Virus record (IMG/VR): IMGVR_UViG_3300042987_003191
DNA from: an uncultured virus (IMG/VR IMGVR_UViG_3300042987_003191)
Taxonomy: Duplodnaviria > Heunggongvirae > Uroviricota > Caudoviricetes
Reading direction: 5' to 3' (one strand)
Length of the DNA: 20,000 nucleotides
Positions 497 through 5,897 of this stretch are shown here, piece after piece. How positions within the stretch are numbered: position 1 is the stretch's first letter; each line of letters opens with the position of its first letter. The translations under genes were made by a program, and so were the position numbers. The notes below the pieces were generated by a model, which saw only the letters and a list, made by a program, of their open reading frames with translations, did no database searches and was not told where the DNA came from.

Positions 497-1003
497 ATGC
501 ACACCATGGCCAGCTCTCCGCTTGTTTTTGGCTTTAGCGAGGAAGACAAGGAGCTTGTACGGAGGGAAGCCCTCCGCAGGCAGCGCGTAAACGAGCGAAA
601 GGGCTTGAAAGGACGCAATGGAGGACCGGCAGATGGTGGCAAAGCACTGCTTTTTCACAAGCTTGGCGCTGCTGGTGAGCTAGCAGTGGCAGATTATCTC
701 CATCTACGGGAGTTTCTCTATCAAGAAACAGAAGCAAAGCGAGGGTCTTTTGATCTTCCTCCCGATATTGACGTGAAGACGCGCTCTCGCCATGACTACG
801 ATCTCATTTGCCAACTAGACGAGAAGCCTGGAAAAACCTTAGTGCTGGTTACAATTCAAAACAAAATCACTCTTCTCCATGGTTGGATAAAGAGTGAAGA
901 CGCGATGAGGCAACAATGGAGAAAGGATCCAGCGGGAGGCCGTATGGCTTATTTTGTTCCTAAGGCTGAGCTATTATCCTTAAGCACCCTGAGAGCGTCA
1001 TGA
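497..1003 (+). CDS. Hypothetical protein, putative PD-(D/E)xK-fold nuclease
   Basis: 168 aa ORF with GAAGELAVADYL (motif I Glu), SFD (motif II) and IDVKT (D-x-K motif III). Its stop overlaps the next start (ATGA). Confidence 0.6.
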   Translation: MHTMASSPLVFGFSEEDKELVRREALRRQRVNERKGLKGRNGGPADGGKALLFHKLGAAGELAVADYLHLREFLYQETEAKRGSFDLPPDIDVKTRSRHDYDLICQLDEKPGKTLVLVTIQNKITLLHGWIKSEDAMRQQWRKDPAGGRMAYFVPKAELLSLSTLRAS

Positions 1004-1689
1004 CAAAAGATCCTCGGCGCTTTTACGTTTACGCATTCTTAAGAGAAAAAGACTCGGCACGCGGCAAGCGCATGAGTCCTTATTACATTGGCAAAGGAGC
1101 ACGAGATCGCGCCACTTCGAAATGTCGCACCATCCCAAGACCTAGCAATTCTTCGTTCATCGTTTTTGTGCAAGAAGGCTTAACTGAACAAGAGGCGTTT
1201 GATTTAGAAAAGTATTGCATTGCCCTCTATGGACGCATTGATAAAGGCACTGGTATTCTTCGCAATCTTGGTGATGGTGGCGATGGAGCATCTGGCGTAA
1301 TTTACTCCCCTGAACGCAGGAAGCAAATATCAGAAGCAAATAAAGGGCGCGTTCACACAGAAGAGACAAAGCGCAAGATCGGAGAAAAGCAAAAAGGCGA
1401 AAAAAATCACATGTGGAGAAAAGATGTATCCCAAGAAACCCGCGATAAGATTTCCCGAGCTAATAAAGGACTAAAGCGATCAGAAGAGGCTCGTCGCAAT
1501 ATCGCCCAAGGAAAGGTGAAGTACCTCTGCGAACTGGTTGATCCGCAAGGTAATGTACATAAAGTAGATAACTTGTGGGCCTTTGCTAATGAAAATAACT
1601 TGCACTACACAATGCTAAGCTGGTTAGTTAAAGGCAAGAAGAAGCAGTATAAAAAGTGGATTTGCAAAAGTTGCATTGAGGTACGATGA
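1000..1689 (+). CDS. GIY-YIG homing endonuclease with NUMOD3 repeats
   Basis: N-terminal FYVYAFLRE...PYYIGKG..R and EAFDLEKYCIALYGR...GILRN..DGGDG. Repeated NUMOD3 units: ERRKQISEANKG, HTEETKRKIGEKQKG, SQETRDKISRANKG. Confidence 0.9.
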   Translation: MTKDPRRFYVYAFLREKDSARGKRMSPYYIGKGARDRATSKCRTIPRPSNSSFIVFVQEGLTEQEAFDLEKYCIALYGRIDKGTGILRNLGDGGDGASGVIYSPERRKQISEANKGRVHTEETKRKIGEKQKGEKNHMWRKDVSQETRDKISRANKGLKRSEEARRNIAQGKVKYLCELVDPQGNVHKVDNLWAFANENNLHYTMLSWLVKGKKKQYKKWICKSCIEVR

Positions 1690-3059
1690 GTCAACTTAAA
1701 TGTTCGGATTTTGCGAAGCACGCGTTGGGCCTGGATCTCTATCCAATGCAGGCAAAAATACTGGATAAATTTTTTAGTCCTGGCATCTCCAATGCAATCT
1801 GGGCGCTCGGTAGACGTAGCGGCAAGACGCTCATGGCTGCGGTCGCCTGTGTTTATATGTGCTTTGTTCTTGAAGAAGACTACAGAAGAAAAGTGCGAAA
1901 AGGAGAAAAGTTTTATATCGTTGCAGTGGCCAACTCGCAAGATCAGGCTCGCATTGCGCTAAATAATATTCGCCAGCTCATTCTTGATAGCCCCTTTGCA
2001 AAAGAAATTGTCAGAGAAACAGCAGACATCATTGAAATCAGCAATGGATGCGTATTTAAAGCCGTCCCCACGTCTGGTCGCGCCGCCCGTGGCCTTGCTT
2101 GCGCGGGAGCCGTATTTGACGAGCTAGCCTTCGCTACTGAGGGCGACGCAAATAGCGGGGGCAGGGGTATTTATGACGCATTGTCACCTGCTATTGCCCA
2201 GTTTGGCGGGAAAGGTCGCATTCTCGAACTTTCATCGCCATGGTTAGGGCAAGGTCTTTTTTGGGAGCATTTCAAAGAGGCATCTTCAGGAAGATTTCCG
2301 TTTATGGCGGCAGAGAATCACCCTACATGGGTGATGAATCCAAATATTTCACAAGAATTCTTGGATACTGAAAGGCAGCGTGACCCAGACAAGTTCGCCG
2401 TTGAATATGGCGCTCAATTTGCCAACAATCTTTCAGCCCTTGTTGCAAGCGATGTTGTTGATGCCTGTATTGATGACCGCAGAGCGGCTCTACCACCCCG
2501 TCCTGAATTCCAAGGCGCCTATGTACTTGCCCTTGACCCCGCCCGTGGTGGCGTTGGCCGTGACGACTACACTGCTTGTATTGTTCACTATGAGAACGGC
2601 ACGCTAGTCGTAGACAAATTCCACTCCTTCGTCGCTGATTTTGAAATCAATGGAAGAATGGAAGTGAATATTAATGCAGTGGAAGATTGGATTAAGGAAC
2701 AGCATCGTCTGTACGTCTTCGACACCATCGTGATGGACCAGTTCAACAGTGCTGGCACCATTCAAAGCTTGGCGAGCGATTTGCCCATCACGGAACTCAC
2801 CTGGACTGTCAGCTCCAAGATGAAAGCATTCAGCAAGATGCGGGAATTGTTTAATGCAGGGCAAATCAATGTATATCGTCACGAGAAAGCAATTATGCAG
2901 CTCAAGAATCTCACTGTTATTTATAAACCCAGTGGACAATGGAGTGTAACTGGTGGCAAGGCTTCTGGAATTGACGACTTAGCGTTTGCAATGGCAGGCG
3001 CAATTCTTGCTGCTAGCAAAGATGATGACATTGGTTGGATCGAAAGCCTCATCTCCTAG
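1686..3059 (+). CDS. terL: Terminase large subunit
   Basis: LYPMQ Q-motif, Walker A LGRRSGKT, Walker B AVFDE, coupling motif LSSP, RNase H-like nuclease LALDPA and C-terminal IDDLAFA; next to the portal gene. Confidence 0.93.
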   Translation: MSQLKCSDFAKHALGLDLYPMQAKILDKFFSPGISNAIWALGRRSGKTLMAAVACVYMCFVLEEDYRRKVRKGEKFYIVAVANSQDQARIALNNIRQLILDSPFAKEIVRETADIIEISNGCVFKAVPTSGRAARGLACAGAVFDELAFATEGDANSGGRGIYDALSPAIAQFGGKGRILELSSPWLGQGLFWEHFKEASSGRFPFMAAENHPTWVMNPNISQEFLDTERQRDPDKFAVEYGAQFANNLSALVASDVVDACIDDRRAALPPRPEFQGAYVLALDPARGGVGRDDYTACIVHYENGTLVVDKFHSFVADFEINGRMEVNINAVEDWIKEQHRLYVFDTIVMDQFNSAGTIQSLASDLPITELTWTVSSKMKAFSKMRELFNAGQINVYRHEKAIMQLKNLTVIYKPSGQWSVTGGKASGIDDLAFAMAGAILAASKDDDIGWIESLIS

Positions 3060-3093
3060 TATGATTTTCAAGCAATAGTCCTGCTATAACGCG

Positions 3094-3348
3094 ATGAACT
3101 GCAATTTAACTATGCAAGAGACTCAGTTTCTCACTGCACTTCTTGGCAATGCTTCCATCAGCAAGCAAACATGCCTTCAACTCCTCGCAGCCGAACATCT
3201 ATACATTCCCACGCTCTTTCCTAAGCTCCAGGCCCACGCCAAGGCCCTTAAGCAAGCTGAGGAGGAGGAAGAATATGAGAAGGCCACGCTTGACGACTAC
3301 TGCCGTGAATACCCTGGAGATCAATGCTGCAAAGAATACGACGTTTGA
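3094..3348 (+). CDS. Small protein with CP12-type C-terminal motif
   Basis: C-terminus LDDYCREYPGDQCCKEYDV fits the CP12 pattern (YC-x3-P-x4-C-x2-YD). The AWDxVEEL core is absent. A -10-like TATGAT and TGcTATAAC lie just upstream. Confidence 0.65.
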   Translation: MNCNLTMQETQFLTALLGNASISKQTCLQLLAAEHLYIPTLFPKLQAHAKALKQAEEEEEYEKATLDDYCREYPGDQCCKEYDV

Positions 3349-3371
3349 AGCTTGGTGGGCGTTTCAAAACA

Positions 3372-3380
3372 TGCTATGCT
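3372..3380 (+). promoter_or_regulatory. Extended -10 promoter (TG-C-TATGCT) in front of a structured non-coding block
   Basis: TGnTAnnnT match directly upstream of the hairpin cluster 3387-3578. Confidence 0.5.
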
Positions 3381-3386
3381 TCTGGA

Positions 3387-3578
3387 GCTTTCGCGAAGCA
3401 CGCTGGCCAGCGTTAGTTCAAAAGGGGCAATGGTTTCAGGCGCCATTGTTTCAGAAAAGCGATGTTGCACATCGCGGCCCTGTGCAACAGGGCTCCCAGG
3501 GGAAGAGGGGAGCAGGCCCACCTGCTCTGAAATGCTGTACAAGGCGGATTGAAGCCCCGCCCAGCGCCCTCAACTTCC
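3387..3578 (+). ncRNA. Candidate structured ncRNA (about 190 nt, 7 or more helices), family not recognised
   Basis: Consecutive stems: GCTT/AAGC, ACGCTG/CAGCGT, GGGGCAATGG/CCATTGTTTC, GCGATG/CATCGC, GCCCTGT/ACAGGGC, GAGCAGG/CCTGCTC, GGCGG/CCGCC, plus enclosing GGAAGAGGG/CCCT..CTTCC. No convincing ORF. Confidence 0.6.
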
Positions 3579-3592
3579 TCTAGCCTCCCTTT

Positions 3593-3601
3593 TGTTACAC
3601 T
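3593..3601 (+). promoter_or_regulatory. Extended -10 promoter (TG-T-TACACT) for the riboswitch/peptide transcript
   Basis: TGnTACACT ends 7 nt before the riboswitch P1 strand. Confidence 0.55.
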
Positions 3602-3608
3602 AATGGTA

Positions 3609-3658
3609 CGTTCACCCCGCAAGGGGCGCATGACTCGCTGGTACGGAACGGGACCAGC
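3609..3658 (+). ncRNA. Glutamine-II riboswitch (Downstream-peptide RNA motif)
   Basis: P1 CGTTC/GAACG, P2 CCCC-GCAA-GGGG, CGCA junction, GGAACGGG, and pseudoknot GCTGGT(3637-3642)/ACCAGC(3653-3658). It lies directly upstream of a YRG-containing peptide, the known context of this motif. Confidence 0.85.
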
Positions 3659-3674
3659 ATCATCGGGAACCATC

Positions 3675-3794
3675 ATGAACCCACTCGCCCTCATCAAGCA
3701 GCAGCTTGAGAAAGCAGCTCGTCTGCGCGAAGCACAGCATGCAAGCCTCGTTTATCGCGGCATTGCTTACGTGCCTAAGCCCCACTGGTTCTGA
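3675..3794 (+). CDS. DUF4278-type small protein (39 aa)
   Basis: MNPLALIKQQLEKAARLREAQHASLVYRGIAYVPKPHWF carries the LxYRGxxY signature. The start is moved from the track's 3549 to ATG 3675. Confidence 0.8.
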   Translation: MNPLALIKQQLEKAARLREAQHASLVYRGIAYVPKPHWF

Positions 3795-3801
3795 GCTGAT
3801 C

Positions 3802-3826
3802 AAAGGGAGCTTAAGCTCCCTTTTTT
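3802..3826. terminator. Bidirectional intrinsic terminator
   Basis: AAAGGGAGC-TTAA-GCTCCCTTTTTT between convergent genes. Confidence 0.8.
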
Positions 3827-4020
3827 AATGTCTGAACGCAACCAGATGGTTGCTTTTCCCAATGTCTAGCTGCATTGGCCACGATGGCAATATTGGTAAT
3901 CAAATACGATGCGAAAATCAACGTGCGAATGATCGCCACAGTATCAGCTTCATGGTCATGCTTGCTTGCCTTCTCCCCTAACGCCTTCGCCCACACTCTC
4001 CATACGTTCTTCCTGCTCAT
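3811..4020 (-). CDS. Cyanophage-type small membrane protein
   Basis: WRVWAKALGEKAS..D.EAD.VAIIRT followed by a hydrophobic helix; resembles small hypothetical proteins of cyanophages. Confidence 0.7.
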   Translation of the reverse strand: MSRKNVWRVWAKALGEKASKHDHEADTVAIIRTLIFASYLITNIAIVANAARHWEKQPSGCVQTLKKGA

Positions 4021-4198
4021 AAATCCAAGCCTTTAGCTCTCTGACATATTGCCTAATGATGGCAGCTTTTTCAAGATGCCACTGGTCCATGGTGAGAAAA
4101 TACTGGGCATTGTGCCAGTCAATAGCTCGTAACGATTGATAAATAATGGGATTGAGCGGTTCACGCAGGGGCGTGTTGAAGGTGCGGCGCTCGGTCAT
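3956..4198 (-). CDS. Hypothetical phage protein
   Basis: 80 aa ORF overlapping both neighbours in the operon. Confidence 0.65.
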   Translation of the reverse strand: MTERRTFNTPLREPLNPIIYQSLRAIDWHNAQYFLTMDQWHLEKAAIIRQYVRELKAWIYEQEERMESVGEGVRGEGKQA

Positions 4199-5824: not shown

Positions 5825-5897
5825 TGGCGGAGACAGGACTTGAACCTGCGACCTCCAGGGTATGAACCTGGCGAGCTACCAACTGCTCTACTCCACT
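5825..5897 (-). tRNA. tRNA-Met(CAT), initiator-like
   Basis: AGTGGAG TA GAGC AGTTGGTA GCTC G CCAGG TTCATAC CCTGG AGGTC GCAGG TTCAAGT CCTGT CTCCGCC A forms a full cloverleaf. The A1:C72 mismatch and A11-U24 pair are initiator features. No CCA is encoded after N73. Confidence 0.92.

What the first reader, a model, noticed from the sequence alone, without database searches (positions are those of the whole stretch)
3372..3578. Dense multi-hairpin ncRNA candidate with complementary loops, directly upstream of the glutamine riboswitch
Seen: about 190 nt are almost fully occupied by 7 hairpins plus an enclosing helix, behind TGcTATGCT. Two adjacent hairpins contain exact reverse complements (TGTTGCACA 3463-3471 and TGTGCAACA 3481-3489), which allows a kissing-loop or two alternative folds. 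The last hairpin, GGCGG-ATTGAAGCC-CCGCC inside GCTG/CAGC, is loosely T-arm-like. Inference: this is an independent phage ncRNA or conformational switch; I do not recognise the family.
Basis: partly seen in the sequence, partly recalled or inferred. Interest (0 to 1): 0.7.

Follow-up and report, generated by a model that had tools for sequence, protein, structure and literature searches.

The report
New structured phage RNA heading tRNA operon
This stretch encodes a previously undescribed, strongly conserved folded RNA of a group of cyanobacterial viruses; in most relatives it sits directly in front of a viral tRNA gene, and its function is still unknown.

Summary
Window 3387-3581 (+) folds into seven hairpins plus an enclosing helix behind a conserved extended -10 box at 3372-3380. 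It belongs to an RNA family found in S-CBS4-like cyanosiphophages: 75 of 80 TerL-anchored viral contigs and 61 of 80 fetched metagenome loci. Covariation is strong: 51 distinct sequences, 97.5% of cells paired, 30 of 45 pairs with double changes, 0 of 500 shuffles as good. No reading frame is conserved, and G-U pairs favour the + strand. Rfam 15 has no match and no paper describing it was found.

In 71 of 90 distinct relatives a tRNA(UAA) starts 0-5 nt after the enclosing helix, usually followed by the glutamine-II riboswitch and a short ORF. In this window the tRNA is missing.

The two hairpins with complementary 9-mers are a lineage-specific insert, present in 6 of 95 distinct variants. The alternative fold is 5.6 kcal/mol worse, so the "switch" reading is not supported.

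My best reading is a new stable phage RNA at the head of a small RNA operon, freed by RNase P where a tRNA follows. Its two 5' hairpins carry self-complementary GC loops, which may allow self-association. The function has not been shown.

The parts
3094..3348 (+). Upstream 84-codon ORF of unknown function, the last gene of the terL-side unit. Its stop codon lies 24 nt before the -10 box.
   Evidence: ORF list. The C-terminal end and stop are conserved in relatives. No Pfam or PHROG match.
3372..3380 (+). Extended -10 promoter-like box TGcTATGCT. The predicted transcription start is near 3387, the first G of P1.
   Evidence: In 66 distinct upstream sequences of the window's clade, T-15, G-14, T-12, A-11, T-10 and T-7 (counted from the first base of P1) are 93-98% conserved, while sequence further upstream varies. 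The S-CBS4 clade has TATAGT at the same distance (16 distinct sequences). The start site is inferred, not mapped.
3387..3399 (+). P1 hairpin GCUU[UCGCG]AAGC. The loop tetranucleotide CGCG is constant across the clades.
   Evidence: Invariant in 51 distinct TerL-anchored sequences. The S-CBS4 clade has GCAU[UCGCG]AUGC, a compensatory U-A to A-U change. Other relatives have U.G at the closing pair, or a 6-bp stem around CGCG.
3400..3413 (+). P2 hairpin ACGCU[GGCC]AGCGU, a perfect 14-nt palindrome.
   Evidence: Invariant in the TerL-anchored set except for one U.G variant. Rare variants are ACGCU[GCGC]AGCGU, ACGUU[GCGC]AACGU (compensatory) and ACGCUG[GCGC]CAGCGU (one extra pair). All of them keep a self-complementary loop.
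3427..3449 (+). P3, a variable hairpin with loop UUUCAGGCG.
   Evidence: All 10 modelled P3 pairs show double changes across the family. A similar loop, UUCAGGC, occurs in the S-CBS4 clade.
3459..3493 (+). P3a (3459-3475, loop UGC) and P3b (3477-3493, loop GCA). These are the two hairpins with the complementary 9-mers, and they are a lineage-specific insert.
   Evidence: Present in 6 of 95 distinct elements, treated as an insertion by the model, and invariant among carriers. The alternative fold is disfavoured.
3498..3581 (+). 3' domain, a three-way junction made of: P4 enclosing helix (3498-3509 with 3567-3581); P5 (3510-3527, loop CCCA); P6 (3534-3537 with 3562-3565); P7 (3543-3561, conserved loop AUUGAAGCC at 3548-3556).
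   Evidence: Double changes are seen in 8 of 10 P4 pairs, 6 of 7 P5 pairs, 2 of 4 P6 pairs and 4 of 5 P7 pairs. The same picture holds in the metagenome set. P5 covariation is already visible on a structure-blind MAFFT alignment.
3582..3605 (+). Linker where most relatives carry a tRNA(UAA) gene. The tRNA is absent in this window.
   Evidence: ARAGORN finds no tRNA here. In 71 of 90 distinct relatives a tRNA starts 0-5 nt after P4.
3606..3658 (+). Glutamine-II riboswitch aptamer (Downstream-peptide motif), in the same transcription unit.
   Evidence: Rfam RF01704, 38.6 bits, gathering score 33.
3675..3794 (+). 39-codon ORF controlled by the riboswitch.
   Evidence: Matches phrog_545 at E = 6e-11. 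Conserved in cyanophages.
3802..3823 (+). Terminator-like hairpin with a T run. It is the likely end of the unit, lying between convergent gene blocks.
   Evidence: Consensus scan.

Best explanation
Window 3387-3581 (+) is a member of a new family of structured RNAs encoded by S-CBS4-like cyanosiphophages.

Shown by comparison:
- A conserved extended -10 box sits at a fixed distance upstream of the element.
- Two small 5' hairpins (P1, P2) present GC-only self-complementary loops.
- A variable hairpin region follows. In this lineage it is enlarged by two extra hairpins.
- A 3' three-way junction (P4-P7) carries a conserved loop AUUGAAGCC.
- All of this lies on the + strand and no reading frame is conserved.
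- The element always heads a short non-coding-rich unit. In most relatives this unit is element, tRNA(UAA), glutamine-II riboswitch, roughly 39-codon ORF, terminator.

Inferred:
- Transcription starts at the first base of P1.
- Where a tRNA follows 0-5 nt after P4, RNase P cleavage at the tRNA 5' end releases the element as a discrete RNA of about 140-160 nt (195 nt with the insert).
- In this window the tRNA has been lost, so the element stays as the 5' domain of the riboswitch mRNA unless another nuclease cuts the A/U-rich linker.
- The freed RNA then acts as a stable particle. Its invariant parts (P1/P2 loops and the UGAAG-containing loop) bind a partner, either a protein or a second copy of the RNA.

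The biological role is unknown.
For: Family and structure:
- 75 of 80 TerL-anchored IMG/VR loci hold the element. The other 5 loci end before its place.
- 61 of 80 fetched metagenome loci match the model.
- There is one copy in each of 5 of 5 complete phage genomes searched.
- Covariation on 51 distinct sequences: 97.5% of cells paired, 30 of 45 pairs with changes on both sides, 0 of 500 shuffles as good, and slid controls give 36-58% paired. A second set of 55 distinct rows gives 97.3% and 29 of 45.
- P5 covariation is already present on a MAFFT alignment made without structure.

Strand and coding:
- 89 G.U cells. 97.5% of cells pair on the + strand against 93.7% if read on the - strand.
- Fold z-scores are -3.04 (+) and -1.33 (-).
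- No frame is open in more than 37 of 95 distinct elements, and lengths modulo 3 are 46/28/21.

Promoter:
- The pattern TGnTAnnnT is 93-98% conserved at a fixed distance from P1. TATAGT sits at the same place in the S-CBS4 clade.

Context:
- Of 90 distinct loci with at least 260 nt downstream, 71 have a tRNA starting 0-5 nt after P4. All 71 carry anticodon UAA.
- Some relatives have the element plus a tRNA plus a terminator and no riboswitch.
- The S-CBS4 clade has a related element: a P1 with a compensatory change, a P3-like loop, a UGAAG motif and a three-way junction, placed before tRNA-Thr, tRNA-Leu or no tRNA. 23 of 50 RNAalifold pairs there show double changes.

RNA libraries:
- Contigs from three metatranscriptome studies (X17, X18, X20) hold the element, and in two of them (X17, X20) the contig runs on directly into the tRNA. 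This shows presence only.

Novelty:
- No Rfam 15 match.
- In GenBank phages only S-CBS4 matches, and the region is unannotated there.
Against: - No transcript 5' or 3' end has been mapped.
- The RNA-library data are assembled contigs. They cannot show strand, ends or abundance and may contain DNA. The X20 contig extends 33 nt upstream of the -10 box into the upstream ORF, which fits read-through or DNA as well as a dedicated promoter.
- There is no terminator between the element and the downstream tRNA or riboswitch. A purely cis-acting leader role is therefore not excluded, and in this window nothing obvious would release the element.
- P1 and P2 vary very little and are palindromic, so part of their conservation could act at the DNA level.
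- The covariation counts come partly from model-fitted alignments of closely related phages, so the changes are not all independent events.
- One relative (L350) lacks the element but keeps the riboswitch, so the element is dispensable in at least one lineage.
- Nothing here identifies a partner or a phenotype.
Confidence: 0.6

Rival explanations
1. The element is a purely cis-acting 5' leader. It exists to stabilise the transcript through its 5'-terminal hairpins, or to help folding and processing of the tRNA and riboswitch mRNA that follow. It has no function once it is cut off.
For: It is always followed by a tRNA and/or the riboswitch-ORF with no terminator in between. Only 4 of 90 distinct loci showed neither, and at least one type among them (L052) holds what looks to the eye like a remnant of a tRNA that ARAGORN does not call. 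The predicted start puts a hairpin at the very 5' end. In this window it is physically the leader of the riboswitch mRNA.
Against: A stabilising leader needs neither a conserved three-way junction nor a near-constant 9-nt loop. It also does not need two hairpins whose loops stay self-complementary through substitutions. The downstream cargo changes between tRNA-Leu, tRNA-Thr, none, and with or without the riboswitch, while the element persists. That argues the element is selected for itself.
Confidence: 0.25
2. The nearly invariant palindromes (TTCGCGAA and ACGCTGGCCAGCGT) act as DNA. They would be an operator for a dimeric regulator at the start site, or a unique recognition site such as a packaging signal next to the terminase genes. 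The RNA structure would be secondary.
For: Both are perfect DNA palindromes. The 14-mer is unique in each of 5 of 5 complete genomes. They lie at about +1 to +27 of the predicted promoter and 330 nt downstream of terL. Loop bases stay palindromic in the variants.
Against: Variants change both half-sites together (ACGCTG to ACGTTG) or add 2 bp at the centre. That restores a hairpin but would weaken a protein site or rephase its half-sites. One variant has U.G, which would be an A-C mismatch in a cruciform's other arm. The P1 change GCUU/AAGC to GCAU/AUGC keeps the hairpin register and breaks the 8-bp palindrome. The adjacent P3-P7 region is clearly RNA structure, with G.U pairs on one strand.
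Confidence: 0.07
3. This is the first reader's reading: a conformational switch or kissing-loop device built on the two hairpins with complementary 9-mers (3463-3471 and 3481-3489).
For: The 9-mers are exact reverse complements, and the loops UGC and GCA are complementary.
Against: The pair of hairpins is absent from 89 of 95 distinct family members. It does not vary among the carriers. The alternative helix costs 5.6 kcal/mol and has pair probability 0.00. Loops of 3 nt are too short for a stable kiss (established RNA structural knowledge, recalled). No expression platform follows.
Confidence: 0.03
4. The region is protein-coding (one of the overlapping ORFs 3143-3583+, 3352-3552+, 3413-3697- or 3321-3542-), or it is a decayed tRNA or intron remnant.
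For: Several ORFs of 66-146 codons overlap it. A tRNA occupies the adjacent slot in relatives.
Against: No frame is kept open: the best is 37 of 95 distinct elements. Indels are not multiples of three. Substitutions are pairwise compensatory. There is no tRNA, group I intron or other Rfam hit.
Confidence: 0.02

Closest known systems
Bacteriophage T4 RNAC and RNAD (stable small RNAs of the T4 tRNA region)
   Same: They are phage-encoded small stable RNAs transcribed together with phage tRNAs, and their function is still unknown. [quoted passage not shown] A passage in PMC9697503 reports Northern validation.
   Different: The phage group and host are different. No sequence or structural relation was tested, and I did not check whether an Rfam model of RNAC or RNAD exists. 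Here there is a single tRNA rather than a cluster, plus a riboswitch-controlled ORF in the same unit.
GOLLD and ROOL RNAs (large ornate phage and prophage RNAs)
   Same: They are encoded in phages and prophages, often near tRNA islands. tRNAs sometimes lie inside GOLLD. Their function is unknown, and they form homo-oligomers through RNA-RNA contacts (passages of bioRxiv 10.1101/2024.12.08.627333; PMC5737381). Here too a phage RNA is directly linked to a tRNA and has self-complementary loops.
   Different: This element is 3-5 times smaller (about 140-195 nt against 580 to more than 800 nt). No match to any Rfam family appeared in the scans; that GOLLD and ROOL models are part of Rfam is taken from the cryo-EM preprint's methods. 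Self-association is only inferred here.
3'-end formation by RNase P at a downstream tRNA or tRNA-like structure (for example MALAT1/mascRNA; recalled, not from a call)
   Same: An upstream non-coding RNA would get its mature 3' end from RNase P cleavage at the 5' end of an adjacent tRNA fold.
   Different: Here the downstream element is a genuine tRNA gene in a bacterial virus. Cleavage has not been shown, and in this window the tRNA is absent.
Retroviral dimerisation initiation hairpins (HIV-1 DIS; recalled, not from a call)
   Same: Natural variants of a hairpin loop change but stay self-complementary. Here GGCC becomes GCGC in P2, and CGCG is constant in P1.
   Different: The loops here have only 4-5 nt. 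There is no experimental evidence for dimers, and only about 3 independent variant events were seen.
Glutamine-II riboswitch (Rfam RF01704, Downstream-peptide motif)
   Same: It is the immediate 3' neighbour in the same unit (3606-3658).
   Different: The element lies outside the aptamer model. It also occurs without the riboswitch in relatives, so it is not part of it.

Membership tests
Any Rfam 15 family (4227 models) | Score at or above the family's gathering threshold | tested here: not met
   In the gathering scan of the window only tRNA (5825-5897) and Glutamine-II (3606-3658) pass. In permissive scans of 3000-4100 and of two relatives' elements, the best hits on the element have E of 0.2 to 7 and lie far below threshold.
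   ARAGORN and the Rfam tRNA model find nothing in 3372-3605. P7 has a 5-bp stem but a 9-nt loop, AUUGAAGCC. Whether the loop forms a T-loop motif in three dimensions cannot be tested with these tools.
Riboswitch or conformational switch | Two mutually exclusive conserved structures coupled to an expression platform | tested here: not met
   The alternative 9-bp helix gives -16.2 against -21.8 kcal/mol, with probability 0.00. The hairpins concerned are absent from 89 of 95 distinct members. What follows is a tRNA or a separate riboswitch, not a terminator or ribosome-binding-site platform.
GOLLD / ROOL ornate phage RNAs | Match to the family models; size of 580 to more than 800 nt; phage-encoded near tRNAs; homo-oligomeric assembly | tested here: not met
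   No model match and a size of 140-195 nt. Phage-encoded next to a tRNA: met. Oligomerisation cannot be tested here; there is only an energy estimate.
phi29-type packaging RNA (pRNA) | Match to the Rfam pRNA model; two loops complementary between molecules; a phage with protein-primed DNA and no conventional terminase nuclease | tested here: not met
   No Rfam hit. The phage has a conventional large terminase. The complementary-loop hairpins are optional. That pRNA is in Rfam is recalled, not checked.
Protein-coding gene | A reading frame kept open in relatives, indels in multiples of three, third-position variation | tested here: not met
   The best frame is open in 37 of 95 distinct elements, and lengths modulo 3 are 46/28/21. 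Indels of +1, -1 and +2 occur among close relatives.
New family proposed here (tRNA-preceding structured RNA of S-CBS4-like cyanosiphophages) | A -10 box at a fixed distance; P1 with a CGCG loop; P2 palindromic hairpin; a three-way junction with an AUUGAAGCC loop; a position between the terL-side ORF and the tRNA/riboswitch | tested here: met
   The window scores 83.7 bits (E = 4e-24) over the full length of model R1, which was built without the window sequence. All the features are present.

The most novel reading that the evidence does not exclude
The element is a small self-associating phage RNA. Its two 5' hairpins expose GC-only self-complementary loops: CGCG in P1, constant across the clades, and GGCC or GCGC in P2, which changes but stays palindromic. 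These loops would act as sticky ends that pair between molecules, giving dimers or higher assemblies. That would make it a miniature relative in kind of the cage-forming GOLLD and ROOL RNAs. The directly linked tRNA(UAA), or a host factor, would be held or delivered by this assembly during infection.
Probability: 0.15. Interest if true: 0.85.

Novelty: new variant of a known kind. Interest (0 to 1): 0.6.

Why it matters
Phage-encoded structured RNAs linked to tRNA genes are a recurring theme that nobody has explained. Examples are T4 RNAC and RNAD, GOLLD and ROOL.

This family adds a compact example of about 150 nt with very strong covariation. It comes from abundant freshwater and estuarine cyanophages. 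One cultured representative exists (S-CBS4 on Synechococcus CB0101) in which a related form could be deleted or probed.

Three features make it a tractable model for asking what such RNAs do:
- its small size
- a clear domain plan
- natural variation: cargo tRNA present or absent, riboswitch present or absent, an optional hairpin insert, and loop variants that stay palindromic

It also shows that a glutamine riboswitch, a tRNA and a novel RNA can be packed into one small RNA-rich operon in a virus. For genome annotation, it explains a gap of 250-500 nt that is unannotated in S-CBS4.

Tried and rejected
1. Rfam at permissive thresholds on the window and on two relatives gave nothing credible. 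The best was a 20.6-bit minus-strand Cyano-1 hit (E = 0.2, gathering score 41), caused by the GUGAGGAG complement of the 3' tail CUCCUCAC in the majority variant. That tail is not conserved family-wide.

2. Own-genome search was not possible because no genome is held for this window.

3. An exact 25-mer of P1-P2 gave 0 hits in one genome for each of 185,579 bacterial and archaeal species.

4. Model R1 was run against 151 genomes of the family of a MAG titled Synechococcus sp. UW140. Only weak hits appeared (at most 30 bits), all in local G+C of 63-81%. The one I checked against ORFs (L306) lies inside a 412-codon ORF. I judged them chance. The group searched may not be the true host group, so this is 'not found in those searched'.

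5. In the metagenome 19-mer scan, 19 of 80 fetched loci are chance matches in unrelated G+C-rich sequence.

6. In the P1-motif scan, 9 of 80 fetched loci are unrelated chance matches.

7. Model R1 does not detect S-CBS4 itself at E <= 1 and gives only weak hits in its clade. Homology of the S-type element therefore rests on position, the -10 box, P1, the P3 loop and the UGAAG motif.

8. A search for further copies of the palindromes as operator sites found none in the window, and each palindrome is unique in each of 5 genomes.

9. RNAalifold proposed long-range pairing between P1 and the UGAAG motif. All the bases involved are invariant, so this can be neither supported nor rejected.

10. RNA-run coverage: parts of the stretch without contigs, and contig depths, say nothing about expression level.

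12. Earlier findings of this scan returned nothing.

13. Literature searches for a description of this element (listings and abstracts only) found none. Subscription journals are not covered. The original S-CBS4 genome paper did not come up in the listings, and I did not read it.
Full report
**1. What is in the window**

The window is a piece of a cyanosiphophage related to Synechococcus phage S-CBS4. PHROG and Pfam scans and BLAST give this layout:
- an ORF of unknown function, 497-1003
- a free-standing homing-endonuclease-like ORF with a NUMOD3 motif, 1000-1689
- the large terminase, 1686-3059
- an 84-codon ORF, 3094-3348
- a 257-nt gap
- a glutamine-II riboswitch, 3606-3658 (Rfam RF01704, 38.6 bits, gathering score 33)
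- a 39-codon ORF, 3675-3794 (phrog_545)
- a terminator-like hairpin, 3802-3823
- convergent genes on the minus strand: a phosphoesterase, a tRNA-Met at 5825-5897, and ribonucleotide reductase

The finding concerns the gap.

**2.

The + strand of 3349-3605 folds to -106 kcal/mol, z = -3.04, and none of 200 dinucleotide shuffles folds as well. The minus strand gives z = -1.33, with 21 of 200 shuffles as good.

Folding 3387-3581 alone gives P1 (3387-3399), P2 (3400-3413), P3 (3427-3449), P3a (3459-3475) and P3b (3477-3493). It also gives a three-way junction made of the enclosing helix P4 (3498-3509 with 3567-3581), P5 (3510-3527) and P6/P7 (3534-3565). Pair probabilities are 0.6-1.0.

**3. It is a conserved RNA family**

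An exact 33-mer from the region found five IMG/VR contigs. In them the element is almost invariant while the flanking coding sequence has diverged. Compensatory changes were already visible, as were indels of +1, -1 and +2 nt.

I then fetched 80 viral loci through the terminase protein, so the set is not biased by the element itself. Of these, 75 hold the element. The other five loci end before its place.

From 30 of the shorter 'majority' variants I built a covariance model with a hand-drawn structure. The window sequence was not in the seed. It matches the model full-length at 83.7 bits, E = 4e-24.

On the model-guided alignment of 51 distinct sequences:
- 97.5% of 2195 cells form standard pairs.
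- 30 of 45 pairs show changes on both sides.
- None of 500 column shuffles reaches any of the five measures.
- Sliding the partners by 1-3 columns drops pairing to 36-58%.

Per helix, double changes occur in 10 of 10 P3 pairs, 8 of 10 P4 pairs, 6 of 7 P5 pairs, 2 of 4 P6 pairs and 4 of 5 P7 pairs. P1 and P2 do not vary in this set, apart from one U-A to U.G change.

A structure-blind MAFFT alignment already shows six of the seven P5 pairs covarying, so the signal is not an artefact of fitting.

A 19-mer scan of metagenome contigs added 61 family loci among 80 fetched. The other 19 are chance hits in unrelated G+C-rich sequence. This second set gives 97.3% paired and 29 of 45 pairs with double changes. 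It was ascertained through P1-P2 and overlaps in origin with IMG/VR, so it is not fully independent.

**4. Strand, coding and promoter**

There are 89 G.U cells. The structure is 97.5% paired as + strand RNA and would be 93.7% paired on the other strand.

No reading frame survives. Among 95 distinct elements the best frame is open in 37, and lengths fall 46/28/21 over the three residues modulo 3.

Upstream of P1 the pattern T-15 G-14 n T-12 A-11 T-10 G-9 n T-7 is 93-98% conserved in 66 distinct upstream sequences, while sequence further upstream varies. In the S-CBS4 clade TATAGT sits at exactly the same distance. This is the conservation pattern of an extended -10 promoter, and it predicts a start at the first G of P1 (window 3387). 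The start is inferred. The simple promoter scan did not call it because the -35 region is poor.

**5. What follows the element**

Among 90 distinct loci with at least 260 nt of downstream sequence, 71 have a tRNA gene that begins 0-5 nt after P4. All 71 have anticodon UAA. Fifty are 74-76 nt long and 21 are 82-90 nt long with a long variable arm.

Most are followed by a glutamine-II riboswitch or a covarying variant of it, plus the short ORF. Some have a terminator directly after the tRNA and no riboswitch.

Nineteen loci lack the tRNA, and the window is one of them. Its 3582-3605 linker replaces the tRNA.

There is one copy per genome in 5 of 5 complete phage genomes searched.

**6. A wider, modular family**

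S-CBS4 and its clade do not match the model (weak hits only). They do carry a related element in the same place, about 175-200 nt long:
- the -10 box at the same distance
- P1 as GCAU[UCGCG]AUGC, compensatory to GCUU..AAGC
- a second hairpin with conserved loop GGGACGCC
- a P3-like hairpin with loop UUCAGGC, as in the window's group
- further hairpins
- a conserved CGAUGAAGCA stretch, or in a marine-looking subgroup a hairpin loop AAUUGAAGAC resembling the P7 loop
- a three-way junction directly before tRNA-Thr(UGU), tRNA-Leu(UAA) or no tRNA, then the riboswitch

RNAalifold on 12 such sequences finds 23 of 50 pairs with double changes.

Further P1 variants keep the CGCG loop while the stem changes, with U.G closing pairs or a 6-bp stem. 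One relative (L350) lacks the element altogether.

In 50,697 GenBank phage records only S-CBS4 matches the S-type element, with no annotation there. None matches the W-type element.

**7.

P3a and P3b are present in 6 of 95 distinct elements. They are identical in all carriers, and the model treats them as an insertion. The two-hairpin state is -21.8 kcal/mol. The best structure containing the 9-bp alternative helix is -16.2 kcal/mol, and in the ensemble of the whole element that helix has probability 0.00. The loops are 3 nt long. I therefore reject the switch and kissing reading for these hairpins. They are a lineage-specific expansion of the variable middle region.

**8. An unexpected feature of P1 and P2**

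A scan anchored only on the -10 box and P1 returned 58 loci with the standard P2. It also returned three family members with other P2 forms:
- ACGCU[GCGC]AGCGU
- ACGUU[GCGC]AACGU, a compensatory C-G to U-A change
- ACGCUG[GCGC]CAGCGU, with one extra pair

A follow-up scan found four IMG/VR contigs of the GCGC type in all.

The stem changes support an RNA hairpin. In addition the loop changes from GGCC to GCGC, so it stays self-complementary. The P1 loop CGCG is also self-complementary and constant across clades. Adjacent loop bases cannot pair within one hairpin. A constraint to stay palindromic therefore points either to pairing between two RNA molecules or to a symmetric DNA site.

Nearest-neighbour energies make a P2:P2 duplex about 20 kcal/mol more favourable than two hairpins. 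A control with a non-palindromic loop gives 2.4 kcal/mol. That estimate ignores concentration and kinetics.

The number of independent events is small, about three. I estimate the chance of keeping palindromy by accident at roughly 1 in 10 for the changes alone, so this is a lead and not a result.

Four observations argue against a DNA operator or packaging site: the paired half-site change, the 2-bp central insertion, the U.G variant, and the P1 change that keeps the hairpin register while breaking the 8-bp palindrome. The 14-mer being unique in each genome is compatible with either view.

**9. Expression**

Logan contigs from three metatranscriptome studies (X17, X18, X20) contain the element at 90-99% identity. 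In X17 and X20 the contig runs straight on into an L083-type tRNA. One run labelled RNA but probably DNA (X19) does the same. One contig (X20) also extends 33 nt upstream of the -10 box.

Contigs show presence in RNA libraries only. They give no strand, no ends and no level, and DNA carry-over is possible.

**10. How it most likely works**

Shown: the element is a conserved + strand RNA structure with its own conserved promoter-like box. It heads a unit that carries a tRNA and/or a riboswitch-controlled mini-ORF.

Inferred: transcription starts at P1. RNase P cleavage at the tRNA 5' end frees the element with a short 3' tail. The freed RNA is a stable particle whose nearly invariant P1/P2 loops and UGAAG-containing loop bind a partner. 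In this window the tRNA is lost, and the element remains the 5' domain of the riboswitch mRNA unless it is cut in the A/U-rich linker.

I give this overall reading a probability of 0.6. A purely cis-acting leader gets 0.25, a DNA-level role of the palindromes 0.07, the switch 0.03, and coding or remnant 0.02.

**11. Comparison with known systems**

The closest in kind are these:
- T4 RNAC and RNAD are small RNAs from the T4 tRNA region with unknown roles (PMC3014915 and PMC9697503, passages read).
- GOLLD and ROOL are phage and prophage RNAs near tRNA islands, sometimes with embedded tRNAs. They are now known to form homo-oligomeric cages (bioRxiv 10.1101/2024.12.08.627333 and PMC5737381, passages read).

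The element is not a member of any of these, nor of any Rfam family. Resemblances to RNase P-made 3' ends (MALAT1/mascRNA) and to retroviral dimerisation hairpins are recalled from general knowledge and were not tested.

I found no publication describing the element (searches; listings and abstracts only). The library lacks most subscription journals, and I did not read the original S-CBS4 genome paper.

**12. Verdict**

This is a real, well-supported, previously uncatalogued structured RNA family of a cyanophage lineage. It is a new variant of the recurring 'phage RNA linked to tRNA genes' theme, and its function is open. The ncRNA interpretation is right, and the switch interpretation is not.

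Noticed in passing
Relatives, slot corresponding to window 3582-3605 (e.g. L007:4346-4419, L003:3125-3212): The tRNA slot behind the element always holds anticodon UAA in the window's clade (71 of 71). The tRNA bodies, however, differ widely: 50 are 74-76 nt without a long variable arm and 21 are 82-90 nt with one. The S-CBS4 clade has tRNA-Thr(UGU) or tRNA-Leu(UAA) in the same slot. This looks like repeated cassette replacement. A short-arm tRNA reading UUA is unusual for a leucine tRNA.
   Followed up: partly
window 1000-1689 (+): A free-standing homing-endonuclease-like ORF (NUMOD3 motif, phrog_314/2081) is wedged between ORF 497-1003 and terL, with overlapping stop and start codons. S-CBS4 has no gene there; its gp011 overlaps terL directly.
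   Followed up: no
Relatives, e.g. L011, L018, L021, L022 downstream of the tRNA: Variant glutamine-II-like aptamers occur with a changed first helix (ACGTTCGGCCC... or ACGTTCGCTCC... instead of ACGTTCACCCC...) and matching changes on the other strand. Some fall below what my simple motif search recognised.
   Followed up: no
Majority variants, 3' tail just before the tRNA (e.g. L040:4255-4265): The tail GCUCCUCAC contains CUCCUCAC. I recall (not checked here) that the cyanobacterial Yfr1 sRNA has a similar conserved motif. It produces a weak minus-strand Rfam Cyano-1 hit (20.6 bits, E = 0.2, gathering score 41). The tail is not conserved in the window's own group.
   Followed up: partly
window 3387-3395 with 3549-3555; S-CBS4-clade alignment A6 columns 9-17 with 151-159: The P1 5' strand and loop (GCnUUCG) can pair with the conserved UGAAGC motif, which is the P7 loop here and a single-stranded stretch in the S-CBS4 clade. 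RNAalifold proposes this long-range helix in the S clade. All bases involved are invariant, so there is no covariation for or against.
   Followed up: partly
L350 (IMG/VR contig, S-CBS4-like): In this relative the upstream ORF is followed almost directly by the riboswitch, with no structured element and no tRNA. The element has therefore been lost, or was never gained, in at least one lineage.
   Followed up: no
L116:208-341 (metagenome contig): In this family member the P6/P7 arm is replaced by a short unrelated hairpin. This could be a genuine variant or an assembly chimera.
   Followed up: no
window 3802-3823: A single terminator-like hairpin lies between the + strand RNA unit and the convergent minus-strand genes. 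A/T runs on both sides suggest it could serve both directions.
   Followed up: no
window 5825-5897 (-): A second phage tRNA, tRNA-Met(CAT), lies within the minus-strand nucleotide-metabolism block.
   Followed up: no
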